IMG/VR virus record: IMGVR_UViG_3300036845_000436
Coordinates: 1-41,346 of that record
DNA: 41,346 nt
Reading direction: 5' to 3' (one strand)
Source: a virus
Lineage: Duplodnaviria; Caudoviricetes
Below are positions 1 through 41,346 of this stretch, piece after piece (the first letter of the stretch is position 1; each line of letters opens with the position of its first letter). The position numbers were made by a program, and so were the translations under genes. The notes under the pieces are model-generated. The model had not been told where the DNA came from. It made no database searches and worked only from the letters and a program-made list of their open reading frames with translations.

Positions 1-117
1 GGCTAGGTAGTGCACGATGCCTAACATTTCTGGTGGCCCATCCGCAAGGGGTATCCCCACCCCGGTCCATATTTATTTTATGGAGACCCTATCGGTTTTA
101 TTTTTGGTGGATTGGCT

Positions 118-275
118 GGGCTCCGACCCGCTTCCGGATGGGGCTCCGACCCGCTTCCGGATGGGGCTCCGACCCGCTTCCGGATGGGGCTCCGACCCGC
201 TTCCGGATGGGGCTCCGACCCGCTTCCGGATGGGCTCCGACCCGCTTCCGGATGGGCTCCGACCCGCTTCCGGAT
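118..275. repeat. Tandem array, 7 copies of CTCCGACCCGCTTCCGGAT separated by GGGG or GGG
   Basis: 19 bp cores start at 121, 144, 167, 190, 213, 235, 257 (period 23 four times, then 22 twice); no spacers. Confidence 0.97.
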
Positions 276-346: not shown

Positions 347-376
347 AACCCGTGGCTGATGCCACAAACGAAAGGA
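347..376 (+). repeat. Early leader repeat A, copy 1 (hairpin + RBS)
   Basis: AACCC-GTGGC-tgat-GCCAC-AAACGAAAGGA, ATG at 388. Confidence 0.9.
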
Positions 377-387
377 AAACCCACCCA

Positions 388-1002
388 ATGCTATTCACTG
401 AAAAATACAAGCCTACAAAAATTGCTGATTTTGTCGGTATCGACAAAGCTAAACGCGCGTGTCGCAAAATCGCGGATAACCCATTCGAGTCTGCATGGCT
501 ATTTGTAGGTAAGTCGGGAACTGGTAAGACAACGTTGGCCTTTGCTCTAGCTTCCGAGATGAATGCGGAACTGCATCACATCCCATCCCAAGGTTGCACA
601 CTGGAGACAGTGAAGAATCTTAAAGACAGACTTTCCCATTTCCCCATGTTCGGGAACGGCTGGCACCTTGTTGTAGTAGATGAAGCGGATCAAATGACGT
701 TACAGGCTCAACATATGTTTTTATCCCTACTAGATTCCACTGCGCGTCCAAGGAACACGATTTTTATTTTCACCTGTAACAGTGTCGAAAGGTTCGAAGA
801 TAGGTTGCTATCTCGTTTTGTTGGCCAAGTTCTATTCTCAACGCAAGGCATGAATCCTAAAATCGCGGAACTACTTGCGCGCGTCTGGGAGAATGAAGCT
901 GATGGGGAAACGGCTCCAAACTTTGCCGGCATCGCGGAAGCTTCAAACAACAATGTTAGAGCGGCATTATCCGCGCTACAAAACAGACTTATCTGCGGAT
1001 AA
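388..1002 (+). CDS. Clamp-loader-clade AAA+ ATPase (RFC/DnaX/RarA-like), 204 aa
   Basis: EKYKP..ADFVG, Walker A GKSGTGKTT, Walker B VVVDEAD, sensor-1 FTCN, LLSRF, NNVRAAL; start moved to the ATG after the RBS. Confidence 0.85.
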   Translation: MLFTEKYKPTKIADFVGIDKAKRACRKIADNPFESAWLFVGKSGTGKTTLAFALASEMNAELHHIPSQGCTLETVKNLKDRLSHFPMFGNGWHLVVVDEADQMTLQAQHMFLSLLDSTARPRNTIFIFTCNSVERFEDRLLSRFVGQVLFSTQGMNPKIAELLARVWENEADGETAPNFAGIAEASNNNVRAALSALQNRLICG

Positions 1003-1006
1003 ATAA

Positions 1007-1038
1007 ATCATGCCTCCATCATGGAGGCATGATACAAT
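1007..1038 (+). promoter_or_regulatory. 27 bp palindromic operator overlapping an extended -10 promoter
   Basis: ATCATGCCTCCAT-C-ATGGAGGCATGAT (1007-1033); TG-A-TACAAT (1030-1038). Confidence 0.7.
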
Positions 1039-1050
1039 CATCAAATAAAT

Positions 1051-1080
1051 AACCCGTGGCAATTGCCACAAACGAAAGGA
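1051..1080 (+). repeat. Early leader repeat A, copy 2
   Basis: AACCCGTGGCAATTGCCACAAACGAAAGGA, TTG at 1088. Confidence 0.9.
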
Positions 1081-1087
1081 TCCAATC

Positions 1088-1966
1088 TTGAATACCTACG
1101 AAACAATTACTAATCGAATTATTGACGCGTTAGAAGCTGGGGTTATTCCGTGGCGGAAGGAATGGAGGACGTCTGGCAAGACTTCCGGATTGCCTTACAA
1201 CCTTATAAGCGGATTGCCTTATCGCGGTATCAACGTCTTTTCTCTTCTGTGTTCCCCTTATAGCTCTAACGGATGGGCGACGTACAAGCAAGCGCAATCC
1301 AAAGGCTATCAGGTCCGCAAAGGCGAAAAGGCGTCTCCCGTCGTGTTCTGGAAGTTCCCCAGTAAAGAAAAAATTGCGGAAGGAAAAGAGTTCCCGTTCG
1401 CGCGAATCTACAGCGTCTTTAACGTGGAACAAATGGACGGTGTACCTGTGGAGTTGCCTTTTGAGGGTGTGACGTTTGATCCGCTTGAATCCTGCGATAC
1501 CGTGGTTTCGGCTTTCATGGGGTCCGCGTCGCATCCAACGTTGGGTCACGGTGGGGACAAAGCTTACTTTCAGCCGTCGACGGATCATGTTCAAATGCCC
1601 ACGCGCGAATCCTTCAATTCCGCCGGTGGATACTATGCCACCTTGTTTCATGAGTTCGCCCATTCTACCGGCATCAAGACGCGTCTTAATCGCCCTGAGT
1701 TGCAATCTATGAAGGGGTTTGGGGATGAGGACTACAGCAAAGAAGAGTTAACGGCTGAGTTTGCGGCTGCGTTCCTTTGCGCTGAAACTGGCTGCTCGAA
1801 TGAGGAACGAGTTACTAACTCGGTCGCCTATATTCAGGGCTGGCTGCGGAAGCTTAAAAACGATACTGCAATGGCGGTGCAAGCTGCCCAGCGCGCGCAA
1901 AAGGCCGCAGAATTTATCCTGCTTCGCAAGTCAATAGCTGCCACCTCGGAAGAGGTGGCGGCATGA
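1088..1966 (+). CDS. ardC: ArdC-family ssDNA-binding antirestriction protein with zincin-like C-terminal domain
   Basis: IPWRKEW, PYN...YRGIN, WATYKQA...VRKGEK, YSVFNVEQ, AYFQPSTDHVQMP, YYATLFHEFAHSTG, YSKEELTAE, AYIQGWL. Confidence 0.92.
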   Translation: MNTYETITNRIIDALEAGVIPWRKEWRTSGKTSGLPYNLISGLPYRGINVFSLLCSPYSSNGWATYKQAQSKGYQVRKGEKASPVVFWKFPSKEKIAEGKEFPFARIYSVFNVEQMDGVPVELPFEGVTFDPLESCDTVVSAFMGSASHPTLGHGGDKAYFQPSTDHVQMPTRESFNSAGGYYATLFHEFAHSTGIKTRLNRPELQSMKGFGDEDYSKEELTAEFAAAFLCAETGCSNEERVTNSVAYIQGWLRKLKNDTAMAVQAAQRAQKAAEFILLRKSIAATSEEVAA

Positions 1967-7112: not shown

Positions 7113-8436
7113 GTTTTTTGGGTTCCTCGTTCAATGGTTCGTCGTTCACTGTTACTACTTCCCCATCTTCAAGATAGATTCCGATCTTCCCTGTAGTGCT
7201 AACGGATTCCAGCCAAATTTGGAAATCTTCCGCTTTGGCCATCTCCGCTATCAGTTCCAAACTCTTGTCGTCCAGCAGTGATCCGTCTTTGATCCGCATG
7301 ATCCGGAGTTTCGGGTTAATCGCCATGCCAATAGCTACGCTGGTTTTCATCTGCTCGGCGTGGCTCGACTGGTCAAAGGGTAGGCCGTTATAAATCACCT
7401 CGCGTTTGCCGGTATCGAATCCCAGTCCCTCGATTGGATACTTAGCGAGTGCCAGGGCTTCATCCTTCTGCCTCTGGCCGCGCTCTACAGCCTCGTCCAG
7501 CCTCTTCCACTCCTCTTGCTTGGCTTCGGCCTCGGCTTCGATTTTGGCGCGCGTGGCGGCTCTGTCGATCGCTGCGTTAATCGTCCGCGCGTTGTTGATC
7601 CGCTCGGCTATCTCGGCGGAATCCTTTGGGCTGTCCAATGGTTCCCATGAGCGGATTGTCGCGTCCATCTTCGCGGCTTCTCCTACTGCTTCACGGTTCG
7701 CCTTTTCCAGCCGTTCGATATCGGCCTTCATTGCGTCGATGCGTTCCTGTCGCTCCTCGATATTGCGGTCCACCTGCGTTCGTTCGTGTTCGTAGTTCCC
7801 GCGCTCGCGCTTCTCGCGCTCGATGGCGGCGTTAAACTCGCCGGCCTGTTGGAGCTCGGTGATGAGTGCGGCTTCGTCGTACTTCTCTTTGGGGAGGTCG
7901 GCGGGTACGTGGATCGCATCGCGGCGGGTGTAAAGGGCATCGCGCTCCTTCTTCGCTACGGTGCGCGCGTCATAGTCGGCCTTCGCCTGTACCTCGATGG
8001 CGTCAAGGTCGACGTCGGGCATGGCGATATGAGAGAGGGCGTCGAACTGGGCCTTCGGTGTCATCAGAATAAAGTCCAGCGGATCGAAGCTGATCGCTCC
8101 CATGAGGCTGCGTAACACCTCATCGGGATCCTTCCACACCTTGCCGTCCTTGCCTTCGATGGTGAGATAGCCGGCGCGCTTCGGGCTTCCCTCGGTGATC
8201 CTGCGGGTGACAACAATCTCCCCCAGGTCCACTTTGATAAAGGCTTTGCCGGATCCTTTGCGAACCGGGAAGTTCGGGACCGTCTTGGTCCCCATCAAGG
8301 CGTATTCGATGGAATCCAGAACGGAAGACTTGCCGGCTCCGTTGCCTCCTGAGAGTCGGACCATAAATTTGTTCGGAGTTATGTCGACGGTCTTTAACCG
8401 CTTAATGTTCTCTGCTGTAAAACGAATGATTCTCAA
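7066..8436 (-). CDS. SMC/Rad50-like coiled-coil ATPase
   Basis: ENIKR, Walker A GGNGAGKSS, long coiled coil, degenerate signature SSHAEQ, IKDGSLLD. Confidence 0.85.
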   Translation of the reverse strand: MRIIRFTAENIKRLKTVDITPNKFMVRLSGGNGAGKSSVLDSIEYALMGTKTVPNFPVRKGSGKAFIKVDLGEIVVTRRITEGSPKRAGYLTIEGKDGKVWKDPDEVLRSLMGAISFDPLDFILMTPKAQFDALSHIAMPDVDLDAIEVQAKADYDARTVAKKERDALYTRRDAIHVPADLPKEKYDEAALITELQQAGEFNAAIEREKRERGNYEHERTQVDRNIEERQERIDAMKADIERLEKANREAVGEAAKMDATIRSWEPLDSPKDSAEIAERINNARTINAAIDRAATRAKIEAEAEAKQEEWKRLDEAVERGQRQKDEALALAKYPIEGLGFDTGKREVIYNGLPFDQSSHAEQMKTSVAIGMAINPKLRIMRIKDGSLLDDKSLELIAEMAKAEDFQIWLESVSTTGKIGIYLEDGEVVTVNDEPLNEEPKKHAAKKRTKVEAKPIR

Positions 8437-8819
8437 TTGGTCGCTCTCTCTTCTGATATTTTGGCAAGCTCTATTTCTAAGCTGCGAATGGATTTTTTGA
8501 GACTGGCGGTGATGCTTTCGAGCGGGGCTAAAGTGGTCCTCATCTCGCTCAACCTCTGCTGTAGCGTCTCGACTGTTTTATGTGGCGGGTTGTGAACCTG
8601 AACGGTATAGGACACGCCGGATTCGTTGAAGTAGGCGATTGCGAGATTAGGGTTTTTCCCCATCACGGCTATCTGCTCGACATAGGCGGGGTCCGGCGCA
8701 TCCATTCCGTTCTCCCAATTCGAGATGGCAGACTGACTAACGCCTAGCACCTCTCCAAAATCTTGCTGATTGAGTTTCAGGGACTTTCTGGCTGCTCGTA
8801 TCTCCGCTCCGATGTTCAA
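8433..8819 (-). CDS. XRE-family HTH regulator
   Basis: IRAARKSLKLNQQDFGEVLGVSQSAISNWENG...P. Confidence 0.88.
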   Translation of the reverse strand: MNIGAEIRAARKSLKLNQQDFGEVLGVSQSAISNWENGMDAPDPAYVEQIAVMGKNPNLAIAYFNESGVSYTVQVHNPPHKTVETLQQRLSEMRTTLAPLESITASLKKSIRSLEIELAKISEERATN

Positions 8820-38975: not shown

Positions 38976-39032
38976 ACCGTTACTTTATGAGAACCAAAAC
39001 CGTAACCCCCTTAAATTCTTAACATTAGGGGC

Positions 39033-39060
39033 TTGCTTAAGTTTAACAACGTGCTAGAGT
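39033..39060 (+). promoter_or_regulatory. Promoter upstream of the structured leader
   Basis: TTGCTT, 16 nt, extended -10 TG-C-TAGAGT in an AT-rich stretch. Confidence 0.6.
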
Positions 39061-39066
39061 TACCAA

Positions 39067-39189
39067 CAATCGGCTTGGCGGCGAGTCAACCGAATTGTGG
39101 CTAAACGACGGCCTGATCACCGTCGCGTTAGGTGGAGTAGCTGACACTACTCCACCGAGCCTCAAGTGTCAGATTGAGAGGGGAAGCCA
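39067..39189 (+). ncRNA. Putative structured leader RNA with four hairpins and complementary loops
   Basis: GGTGGAGTAG-CTGACA-CTACTCCACC and CTCAA-GTGTCAGA-TTGAG, plus two upstream stems. Confidence 0.6.
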
Positions 39190-39350
39190 TGCCGAACACG
39201 GTCAAAACTATTGCTGAACTGGGGCGAATCGCCCACTCCCAAAAATTAAGAAGTTTCACGCGCCTGCGAATCGTTCGCGGGTCTTGCGCTATTGCGGCGC
39301 AAAGTAAAAGCGGACTGAGTTTCCTCAATCCGCTTCCACTGCCACTGTAG
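39189..39350 (+). CDS. Possible 53 aa leader peptide (MPNTVKTIAEL...), absent from the ORF track
   Basis: GAGGGG SD 6-11 nt upstream; open to the TAG at 39348-39350. Confidence 0.45.
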   Translation: MPNTVKTIAELGRIAHSQKLRSFTRLRIVRGSCAIAAQSKSGLSFLNPLPLPL

Positions 39351-39407
39351 GGAGACTGATAGCCACACCAGCCACCCCGAATAAAACATTTTCAAGTCAA
39401 CACCCCT

Positions 39408-40187
39408 ATGCGTTGCAAGCGCATGGTACAGGAGAGTTTCGTGTTACCAAAAACCTTAGCATCCCCATGCCTCCATGTCAACAGTCAACCCGCGAAAAAT
39501 CCTGTGAAAATAAGGGTTTCGCAAAGGTTGTCCAAAGTCAATTACGAGTTTGTTCCGGTCCCCTCGAACCTAGATAAGCTAATTCCGGACGCAACTTTGG
39601 CAAAGTTTTGGAAAAAGCTCCTAGAGTTGTGGAGGAAAGGAATATCCGATCCCTCTGTTCGTCTCCTAGCCAGCCTCATGGAGAAGTCTGAGAGGTCCAT
39701 ACAGCGGTATCAAAGAGCGTTGGAGTCTATGGGTATGCTGGCAAAGCAGCTAAGGAGGGTACTTCATAACAGGAATGACACTAACGTCTATACCCTCATG
39801 GGCTTTCAGGTGGGGGTGGGTGACAAAAATGTCGTAGAGAAGAAGGGAGAAAGTACAAATACCACAACACCACCGGCGTCGCCGGCGGGTTTGGAGTCGA
39901 TCAACGAGGTCAAACCCTCAAAAACGCGCCTGGAATGGGAAGCGCGGCAAGCGAAAGACGCGGCGGATCACGGTTTGAGGCTTCAAGGCTGGGTTGATAG
40001 GGGGAAATTGTGGCTGGGGATGCAGCAGTGGCGGCTGGCGAAGGCGTATGAGCGTAACCGTATGGCACTGCAAGCGCGGATCGGCGTGTACGACGGGCCG
40101 CAAATGAGCGATGAGGAAGTGATCGAGGTTAGGGAACGGATGGCGAGACGTGAGGCGGAACGGAAGGGTATCATTTTGACGGCATGA
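39408..40187 (+). CDS. Winged-HTH phage replication initiator-like protein
   Basis: PSVRLLASLMEKSERSIQRYQRALESMGML...RNDTNVYTL, GDKNV; start uncertain. Confidence 0.72.
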   Translation: MRCKRMVQESFVLPKTLASPCLHVNSQPAKNPVKIRVSQRLSKVNYEFVPVPSNLDKLIPDATLAKFWKKLLELWRKGISDPSVRLLASLMEKSERSIQRYQRALESMGMLAKQLRRVLHNRNDTNVYTLMGFQVGVGDKNVVEKKGESTNTTTPPASPAGLESINEVKPSKTRLEWEARQAKDAADHGLRLQGWVDRGKLWLGMQQWRLAKAYERNRMALQARIGVYDGPQMSDEEVIEVRERMARREAERKGIILTA

Positions 40188-41233: not shown

Positions 41234-41346
41234 GAGGAAAATGAGTATGGATAAGCCAAGAAAACTTATAAGTCTCGTATTCAGCCCCAGGCGCAACACT
41301 CTACTTACTTATAAGTTTTCTTGGCTTATCCATACTCATTTTCCTC
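41234..41346. repeat. Perfect 40 bp inverted repeat with a 33 nt loop at the window end
   Basis: 41234-41273 is the exact reverse complement of 41307-41346. Confidence 0.97.

What the first reader, a model, noticed from the sequence alone, without database searches (positions are those of the whole stretch)
39033..39410. Candidate new kissing-loop RNA and leader peptide upstream of the replication initiator
Seen: right after an extended -10 promoter come four consecutive hairpins: H1 39067-39097; H2 CGACGG/CCGTCG 39106-39125; H3, a perfect 10 bp stem 39131-39156 with loop CTGACA; H4 CTCAA/TTGAG 39161-39178 with loop GTGTCAGA. The H3 and H4 loops are exactly complementary (CTGACA/TGTCAG). TGGCT (39098-39102) can pair with AGCCA (39185-39189) to close a multiway junction. 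The SD of a 53 aa ORF begins in the H4 3' arm, and the HTH initiator follows. Established analogies: pseudoknot and leader-peptide control of repZ in IncI plasmids, and P1 C4 / P4 CI immunity RNAs. I do not recognise it as a known family. Inference: an RNA switch controlling replication or lifestyle.
Basis: partly seen in the sequence, partly recalled or inferred. Interest (0 to 1): 0.8.

Follow-up and report, generated by a model that had tools for sequence, protein, structure and literature searches.

The report
Kissing-loop cloverleaf locks phage replication leader
Ahead of the likely DNA-replication gene of a group of soil phages lies a roughly 125-base sequence whose two hairpin tips stay complementary while changing letters in all seven versions found and which matches no catalogued RNA family; as an RNA it is predicted to fold over and lock the ribosome site of a short leader gene, and a conserved backward-facing promoter likely makes an antisense RNA against the replication gene itself.

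Summary
Six related phage loci, none selected for loop pairing, carry the same design: a 5' hairpin, a four-way junction with an L3-L4 kiss, the SD and AUG of a 48-74 codon ORF, then a likely O-type initiator. All seven loop pairs differ, yet each is complementary (5-8 bp; 1 of 5040 permutations as good; 1 of 131 unrelated pattern hits shows a perfect 6-mer). There is no Rfam hit.

Best reading: a cis translational lock, like the MS2 maturation-gene cloverleaf. A predicted early three-way fold leaves the SD open; the kiss plus P4/P1 then close it. Leader translation likely gates read-through into rep.

It predicts a ~145-nt OOP/ctRNA-like antisense RNA over the rep RBS.

It fails membership tests for the IncI repY/repZ and C4/CI systems. 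No expression data were found; lifestyle is unknown and the host is only hinted (Acidobacteriota). The scan noted kissing-loop leaders before phage rep genes on other DNA (17 unchecked notes, no sequence look-alike).

The parts
39033..39060 (+). Predicted rightward sigma70-type promoter (weak -35 at 39033-38, TG-extended -10 at 39055-60); start site about 39067
   Evidence: Sequence; a -10-like hexamer at -41 to -61 from the AAA linker in 7 of 7 loci; weak consensus matches, no transcript data
39067..39097 (+). H1, 5' hairpin
   Evidence: A hairpin is predicted here in 7 of 7 loci, with different stems
39095..39102 (+). Switching strand: pairs early with 39158-39165 (P1alt, SD open) or late with 39185-39191 (P1, RBS closed)
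   Evidence: P1alt is the best fold in 7 of 7 when the L4/SD/AUG part is held unpaired; the closed fold is 6-11 kcal/mol more stable without counting the kiss. Better than shuffles (11 of 2000) but not cognate-specific (4164 of 5040 permutations as good)
39103..39125 (+). Invariant AAA linker and P2 hairpin
   Evidence: 42 of 42 cells paired, 3 of 6 pairs change on both sides, 0 of 500 shuffles reach the covariation score
39131..39156 (+). P3 hairpin (about one helical turn) with loop L3 at 39141-46
   Evidence: 48 of 49 cells of the inner 7 bp paired across 7 loci
39161..39178 (+). P4 hairpin with loop L4 (kissing bases 39167-72); its 3' arm overlaps the leader SD
39178..39191 (+). Leader SD (39178-81), spacer paired in P1, AUG (39189-91)
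   Evidence: SD 5-8 nt before the AUG in 7 of 7 loci
39189..39350 (+). Leader ORF, 53 aa (48-74 aa in homologs)
   Evidence: Same frame through H5 in 6 of 6 loci that have H5, stop just behind it; compensating +1/-1 indel at 39289/39294 in two contigs of run X3; no Pfam or PHROG family
39301..39335 (-). H5: predicted intrinsic terminator of the antisense RNA (GNRA-capped stem, then a U-rich tract)
   Evidence: Minus-strand fold with G-U pairs; stem and U-rich tail seen in 5 of 5 rows that reach it and in all 7 folds; the simple terminator scan did not list it
39350..39406 (.). H6 hairpin (folds on the minus strand in the window) and a C-rich, G-poor spacer on the mRNA (possible Rho loading site)
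   Evidence: spacer C 11-17 vs G 2-6 in 6 of 6 loci; the Rho role is inference
39405..39443 (+). H7 hairpin with a variable loop, rep SD 39430-34, probable GTG start 39441
   Evidence: Alignments of 7-8 loci
39301..39446 (-). Predicted antisense RNA of about 145 nt covering the rep start, rep SD, H7, H6 and the last ~16 leader codons
   Evidence: Inferred from the promoter and terminator; no transcript seen
39453..39481 (-). Conserved leftward promoter (-35 at 39481-76, 17 nt spacer, TG-extended -10 at 39458-53) inside the first rep codons
   Evidence: TTGACA-17-TGnTAnnnT in 6 of 6 close loci, perfect extended -10 in L013, none in L014; the spacer diverges
39441..40187 (+). Winged-helix protein, probable lambda-O/DnaD-like replication initiator, with a palindrome at 39822-33 and an A-rich tract (possible origin)
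   Evidence: 17 of 24 homologs match phrog_270 and 15 of 24 phrog_391; the L013 homolog is followed by an IstB/DnaC-type ATPase; fold search gave no E<=0.001 match, with initiator and DnaD N-domains among the top rows; palindrome found in 5 of 8 loci by pattern, letters changed in L016

Best explanation
This is a conserved phage mRNA leader whose two hairpin loops are complementary in every version found, and which likely works in cis as a translational lock: it is predicted to fold first into an open three-way junction and then into a kiss-stabilised four-way junction that buries the ribosome site of a short leader gene, whose translation would let transcription continue into the probable replication-initiator gene. 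Steps: (1) shown by comparison: P2, P3 and the L3-L4 pairing covary, and the SD and AUG sit in P4/P1. (2) Predicted: as the transcript grows, strand 39095-102 pairs with the P4 5' arm, which leaves the SD free and rules out the kiss; once L4 and the SD are made, the kiss, P4 and P1 replace it. (3) Inferred: ribosomes that load in that window translate the leader; untranslated transcripts would be stopped by Rho in the C-rich stretch behind the stop codon. (4) Inferred: a second layer, an OOP/ctRNA-like antisense RNA from a promoter in rep's first codons, covers the rep SD and start codon. The net effect would be a small, timed dose of initiator per transcript.
For: Loop pairs differ in all 7 loci, yet each is complementary; cognate pairing is best in 1 of 5040 permutations. 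1 of 131 unrelated pattern hits had a perfect 6-mer. No locus was selected on loop pairing: two came by protein, two by a stem pattern, two by the downstream hairpin. P2 covariation: 0 of 500 shuffles. G-U pairs in P2 (L014), P3 (L026) and P4 (L015) favour the sense strand. The four-way fold closing on the RBS is the best fold in 7 of 7 and the open three-way fold is best in 7 of 7 under constraint; it also appears in the best fold of the truncated transcript in 6 of 7. The SD overlaps P4 in 7 of 7. No second 6-nt complement of L3 lies within the predicted transcript in 7 of 7, so the partner is local. Leader frame conserved, peptide not. Antisense promoter and terminator conserved. The same topology and a transient opening structure are established for MS2 (PMC4615214, passages).
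Against: No transcript, probing or reporter data. Only 7 sequences, and four of them (L015, L026, L079, L082) are 87-91% alike in the start of the ORF. P1alt shows no cognate-specific covariation (4164 of 5040) and may partly be a by-product of composition; in the window and in L082 its probability is only 0.23, because H1 competes. P1 is short (3-5 bp), and in the longer context (from 45 nt upstream) its pairing probability is 0.15 or less in 4 of 7. Whole-domain folding energies do not favour the sense strand (3 of 7 favour minus by over 1.5 kcal/mol). A purely cis lock does not explain why the loops are only 36-50% alike where the flanks are 65-91% alike. Rho termination is inferred from composition only. 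The initiator assignment rests on weak profile hits. L014 lacks H5 and the leftward promoter.
Confidence: 0.45

Rival explanations
1. Self-recognition in trans: short or processed copies of the leader from a resident phage pair loop-to-loop with the nascent leader of an incoming phage of the same type and lock it off (or pry it open, as IsrK does), so the loop letters define immunity or incompatibility groups.
For: The loops are scrambled between otherwise close relatives: L015 and L026 are 89% alike over P1-P3 and 91% in the ORF start, but 38% in L3. A relative in run X2 aligns on both sides but has diverged at equal length across 39097-39174. The ~75-nt three-way form resembles C4/CI RNAs in size (recalled). 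Short-form-acts-on-long-form is shown for IsrK (PMC4825925, passages).
Against: No terminator or processing site that would release a short form was found. There are no extra target copies. In the finished fold both loops would be engaged in cis. No integrase, protelomerase or ParA match in 5 of 5 records searched (all are fragments), so a resident state is not shown.
Confidence: 0.22
2. Ligand- or protein-gated riboswitch-like element: the conserved junction binds a metabolite or a phage protein that holds the open or the closed fold.
For: Invariant junction bases (AAA linker, base of P2, J2/3) in 7 of 7 and a mutually exclusive expression platform.
Against: Few invariant bases for an aptamer, the window deviates in J2/3, the P2 loop comes in three types, and there is no Rfam similarity.
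Confidence: 0.13
3. The fold is a stability or processing scaffold that protects the 5' end and sets a constant low translation rate; the antisense RNA and convergent promoter (as for lambda pO/OOP) do the regulating.
For: The conserved leftward promoter and terminator suffice for known types of control (PMC3985674, passages); P1alt lacks covariation.
Against: The SD is placed in the kissing hairpin in 7 of 7; L014 keeps the kissing domain without the antisense elements.
Confidence: 0.15
4. The structure acts in single-stranded DNA (cruciform or priming signal) near the origin rather than in RNA.
For: It lies about 650 bp from the probable origin palindrome; the stems are nearly perfect.
Against: It begins right behind a promoter and ends on an SD/AUG in 7 of 7.
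Confidence: 0.05

Closest known systems
MS2/Levivirus maturation-gene 5' UTR cloverleaf (PMC4615214, passages read)
   Same: 5' hairpin, then three arms closed by a helix from a strand just behind the 5' hairpin onto the RBS region; a transient fold that captures that strand would allow brief translation.
   Different: dsDNA phage, no sequence match. The SD is held by the last arm (P4) and the closing helix covers the spacer and AUG. The loop-loop kiss is not part of the MS2 description read. It controls a leader ORF before a replication initiator.
Lambda pO promoter / OOP antisense RNA (PMC3985674 and PMC5415839, passages read)
   Same: Leftward promoter in the 5' end of an O-like initiator gene; a short terminated antisense RNA overlapping the 3' end of the small upstream ORF.
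   Different: The predicted RNA is about 145 nt rather than 77 and would cover the initiator's own SD and start codon. The upstream ORF is not a cII-like conserved protein.
I-complex plasmid rep control (repB/repY leader, RNAI/Inc RNA, SLI pseudoknot; PMC10286972 and PMC10724649, passages read; pseudoknot detail recalled)
   Same: Promoter, structured leader, leader peptide, initiator; an antisense RNA; variable loops.
   Different: The leader stops 78-103 nt before the rep SD. The loop pairing is between adjacent hairpins at the leader RBS, not with the rep RBS. The antisense RNA does not overlap the kissing loops. The pairing is predicted to repress, not activate.
P4 CI RNA (seqA/seqB/seqC, kil), P1/P7 C4 RNA (RF01695) and Gifsy-1 IsrK-orf45 (PMC4825925, passages read; C4 details recalled)
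   Same: A structured 5' leader controls a small ORF with conserved nucleotide but variable peptide sequence, upstream of replication or lytic genes.
   Different: No Rfam match, no upstream or downstream target copies, no evidence of a released short RNA.
Pseudomonas REx-C plasmid control module (PMC5304414, passages read)
   Same: Portable stem-loop, leader-peptide and antisense module joined to different Rep families (L016 has the same leader with a distant initiator).
   Different: No plasmid match; no loop-loop pair in the passages read.

Membership tests
Any Rfam 15 family, including C4 RF01695 | Match to the covariance model at the gathering score | tested here: not met
   0 hits in the whole window; nothing over 39060-39200 at E<=10; 0 at E<=1 in 7 of 7 homolog loci
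I-complex rep leader (repY/repZ type) | Leader ORF ends at the rep start (translational coupling) | tested here: not met
   Leader stop is 78-103 nt upstream of the rep SD in 6 of 6 loci
I-complex rep leader (repY/repZ type) | Upstream loop pairs with a sequence beside the rep SD | tested here: not met
   No 6-nt complement of L3 near rep in 7 of 7
I-complex rep leader (repY/repZ type) | Antisense RNA overlaps the pseudoknot stem-loop upstream of the leader | tested here: not met
   The conserved leftward promoter and terminator bracket 39446-39301, downstream of the kissing domain
P4 CI / P1 C4 immunity RNA | RNA loops complementary to target copies upstream and downstream of the RNA | tested here: not met
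   only the adjacent L4 matches; L014 has one further 6-mer, in the promoter region
P4 CI / P1 C4 immunity RNA | Short RNA released by processing and acting in trans | not testable with these tools
   No RNA run listed
P4 CI / P1 C4 immunity RNA | Small-ORF translation controls premature termination before replication genes | tested here: inconclusive
   Frame-conserved ORF and C-rich spacer; composition only
Lambda pO/OOP | Leftward promoter in the 5' end of an O-like initiator | tested here: met
   Consensus match conserved in 6 of 6 close loci plus L013, absent in L014; initiator by weak profile hits
Lambda pO/OOP | Terminated antisense RNA over the 3' end of the upstream ORF | tested here: inconclusive
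   Terminator-like H5 on the minus strand inside the leader ORF; predicted only, no transcript
Lambda pO/OOP | Target gene is a cII activator, cleaved by RNase III | tested here: not met
   The ORF has no Pfam or PHROG family and is not conserved as a protein; cleavage not testable
Levivirus maturation cloverleaf | 5' hairpin plus three arms closed over the RBS | tested here: met
   Best predicted fold in 7 of 7; P2 covariation
Levivirus maturation cloverleaf | The upstream strand pairs directly with the SD; ssRNA phage maturation gene | tested here: not met
   The SD is paired by the P4 5' arm; dsDNA phage with terminase, portal and capsid genes
Levivirus maturation cloverleaf | Transient fold delays closure | tested here: inconclusive
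   P1alt predicted in 7 of 7 under constraint, no cognate covariation
Metabolite riboswitch | Specific ligand binding by a conserved core | not testable with these tools
   Invariant junction bases exist; no binding data

The most novel reading that the evidence does not exclude
The kissing loops are a hypervariable self-recognition code: one RNA fold is both the lock on a phage's replication operon in cis and, as a short or nascent copy, the key that pairs loop-to-loop in trans with leaders of the same type only. Phage immunity or replication incompatibility would then be set by 6-8 exchangeable bases, without a repressor protein or separate target sites, in an undescribed class of phage replication leaders.
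Probability: 0.2. Interest if true: 0.85.

Novelty: new variant of a known kind. Interest (0 to 1): 0.62.

Why it matters
It is a well-supported RNA motif that Rfam lacks, with unusually clean loop-loop covariation, at the control point of phage DNA replication in uncultured soil phages. It combines, in a dsDNA phage, a folding-timed ribosome lock of the MS2 type with a lambda-OOP/plasmid-type antisense RNA. The seven natural loop pairs make a ready-made orthogonal set: loop-swap reporters would show directly whether the kiss is a cis timer or a trans identity code. The latter would be a new route to phage immunity and a compact, programmable translation switch.

Tried and rejected
Exact or near-exact DNA patterns in viral contigs gave nothing or chance hits in unrelated genes (6 stretches, 5; checked).

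The degenerate stem pattern gave 34 stretches, of which 4 are family members (2 new). The downstream-hairpin pattern gave 45, of which 5 are family members (2 new).

Protein-based locus searches: single query and A1 gave 0; A3 gave 1 metagenome, 2 viral and 0 genome loci.

A long-range helix between the 5' strand and the leader stop region was considered and rejected: it was not the best site in most loci and not cognate-specific.

Host search: the initiator profile and the capsid protein gave only weak hits in 9 and 3 of 401 genomes of the phylum of G005. The RNA model found 0 of 151 and 0 of 3 genomes, nothing significant near the weak initiator hits and nothing in Tunturi_3. No DNA match in annotated phages or plasmids and no initiator match in phages.

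Expression: no RNA holder listed. Run X1 gave no cover of the stretch.

Integrase, protelomerase and ParA: 0 of 5 fragmentary records each. Structure search of the initiator: no E<=0.001 match.

Some hand-set P1/P4 coordinates were off by one (L016 P1, L026 P4), so one search is used for those helices.

Literature: searches listed no paper describing this motif (listings and abstract starts only). In the 10,006-candidate viral RNA paper (PMC10690425) 3 of 6 listed supplement files could be searched, with 0 hits; the alignment archives could not be read, so a candidate model there is not excluded.

Full report
Observation. The window is a 41,346-base virus record classed as linear and 43% complete, with terminase, SU10-like portal and capsid genes. 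Bases 39055-39200 fold with z -3.53; 1 of 200 shuffles folds as well. Rfam gives no hit at gathering scores in the whole window and nothing over the domain at E up to 10.

Downstream gene. The HTH gene has 24 relatives by profile search and 86 among 50%-cluster representatives. Of 24 aligned members, 17 match PHROG 270 (replication initiation) and 15 match PHROG 391 (O-like). In L013 a homolog is followed by an IstB/DnaC-type ATPase. The model has a winged-helix N-domain; the fold search gave no match at E<=0.001, though an initiator and DnaD N-domains are among the top rows. A short palindrome followed by an A-rich tract lies inside the gene in 5 of 8 loci by pattern and changes letters while staying palindromic in L016. 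So it is probably an O-type initiator with an internal origin; this is inferred.

Homologs. Six further viral loci carry the RNA: L014 and L015 found through the protein, L016 and L026 through a stem-and-spacing pattern, and L079 and L082 through a separate downstream hairpin. None was selected on loop complementarity. L013 holds only the downstream part. L016 joins the same leader to a distant initiator (E 1.6e-14 against the family profile), so the leader is a portable module.

The kiss is real. The loop pairs are CTGACA/TGTCAG (window), TCCAAG/CTTGGA (L015), AGCACC/GGTGCT (L016), ATGAGC/GCTCAT (L026), CCCTGAAT/ATTCAGGG (L079), CTGATAC/GTATCAG (L082) and CCACA/TGTGG (L014). Cognate pairing is the best of 5040 permutations. 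Among 131 distinct unrelated hits to the same pattern, 1 has a perfect 6-base complement at that distance and 9 have five or more. P2 is paired in 42 of 42 cells with three two-sided changes. The inner P3 is paired in 48 of 49 cells. G-U pairs in three loci point to the sense strand, although whole-domain energies do not separate the strands. P3 stays near one helical turn and the linker to the kissing bases is 7-10 nt, which fits an intramolecular H-type geometry (inference). No other 6-base partner for L3 lies in the predicted transcript in any of the 7.

Expression platform. In 7 of 7 loci an SD lies 5-8 nt before an AUG and overlaps the P4 3' arm, and the best fold of the domain is the four-way junction closing on the spacer or AUG. 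In the window only one core SD base is in the arm. When the L4/SD/AUG part is held unpaired, the best fold in 7 of 7 is a three-way junction in which the 5' strand (39095-102) pairs with the P4 5' arm (39158-65). This form frees the SD and is incompatible with P4; by geometry it also excludes the kiss (inference). It is 6-11 kcal/mol less stable than the closed form before the kiss is counted. It appears in the best fold of the truncated transcript in 6 of 7 loci and beats shuffled strands (11 of 2000), but it is not cognate-specific (4164 of 5040), and its probability is only 0.23 in the window and in L082. This is the weakest structural step. The layout matches the MS2 maturation-gene cloverleaf, where a transient fold delays closure over the RBS (PMC4615214, passages).

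Leader ORF. It is 48-74 codons long, keeps its frame through H5 in 6 of 6 loci despite differing lengths, and stops just behind H5; the peptide is not conserved except where RNA constrains it. Two contigs in run X3 show a compensating +1/-1 indel inside it. It ends 78-103 nt before the rep SD and is followed by a C-rich, G-poor stretch in 6 of 6. I infer that translation, not the peptide, matters, probably by preventing Rho termination, in the manner recalled for P4 kil and P1 icd.

A second element. A leftward promoter, TTGACA-17-TGnTAnnnT, lies in the first rep codons in 6 of 6 close loci; L013 has a perfect extended -10; L014 lacks it. The hexamers are fixed while the spacer diverges. Seven of 27 stored initiator sequences show the amino-acid pattern it imposes (many are truncated at the start). 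The hairpins between the leader stop and rep fold better on the minus strand in 7 of 7, and H5 is followed there by a U-rich tract. This predicts an antisense RNA of about 145 nt (39446 to about 39301) over the rep start, the SD and the last leader codons. Lambda pO lies at the 5' end of O and makes OOP (PMC3985674, passages). No transcript was seen.

What the cis model leaves open. The loops change far faster than their flanks: 36-50% identity in L3 against 65-89% over P1-P3 and 87-91% in the ORF start, for five pairs. A relative in run X2 aligns on both sides but has diverged at equal length across 39097-39174. That suggests selection for distinct loops, as expected if they are also read in trans. 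IsrK is a precedent for a short form acting on its own long form (PMC4825925, passages). I found no site that would release a short form, and no integrase, protelomerase or ParA in 5 of 5 fragmentary records, so this stays the bold alternative.

Comparison and novelty. The element fails the defining tests for the I-complex leader (overlap, pseudoknot at the rep SD, antisense position) and for C4/CI (target copies, Rfam model). It works like a mix of the MS2 lock, a leader-peptide gate and OOP/ctRNA. No Rfam match was found in the window or 7 homolog loci, and six literature searches listed no description. The alignment supplements of PMC10690425 could not be read and may bear on novelty. The only host hint is a capsid protein 42.7% identical to that of Tunturiibacter phage Tunturi_3 (PMC11924767 seen as a search listing only); that phage lacks the RNA. 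The scan's notes list 17 findings on other genomes with kissing-loop or antisense leaders before phage initiators and several OOP-like cases; none looks alike in sequence, and they are unchecked, so they are context and not evidence.

Verdict. A real, uncatalogued RNA motif with strong covariation; a new variant of known RNA-based replication control. Cis lock 0.45, trans identity code about 0.2, interest 0.62.

Noticed in passing
window 1-130 and the matching ends of G001 and G002: Three 41-44 kb records begin at nearly the same conserved sequence next to the clamp-loader-like gene, and five of the seven records end within about 1.2 kb behind the initiator. This suggests fixed genome ends or a shared assembly break; the genomes may be nearer complete than the 43-47% estimates.
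   Followed up: partly
window 41234-41346: Perfect 40-bp inverted repeat with a 33-nt centre that runs to the last base of the record; possible terminal structure or assembly fold-back. No protelomerase match.
   Followed up: partly
window about 110-260: Tandem array of a 22-23 nt unit, at least six copies, near the left end; G001 and G002 have different short repeats at the same place.
   Followed up: no
window 39010-39050 and the same place in homologs: Several TTAA-containing motifs around the sense promoter in most loci; possible operator sites. An XRE-type HTH gene lies at 8436-8819.
   Followed up: no
window 39822-39860: Palindrome plus A-rich tract inside the initiator gene, encoding the conserved GVGDKNV motif; likely Rep box and origin.
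   Followed up: partly
window 352-1966: Clamp-loader-like ATPase and an ArdC-type anti-restriction gene; G001 and G002 have a DUF932 gene beside the clamp loader instead.
   Followed up: no
L014 2640-2760: This locus replaces H5-H7 with two direct repeats of about 27 nt inside its leader ORF and lacks the leftward promoter, yet keeps the kissing domain.
   Followed up: no
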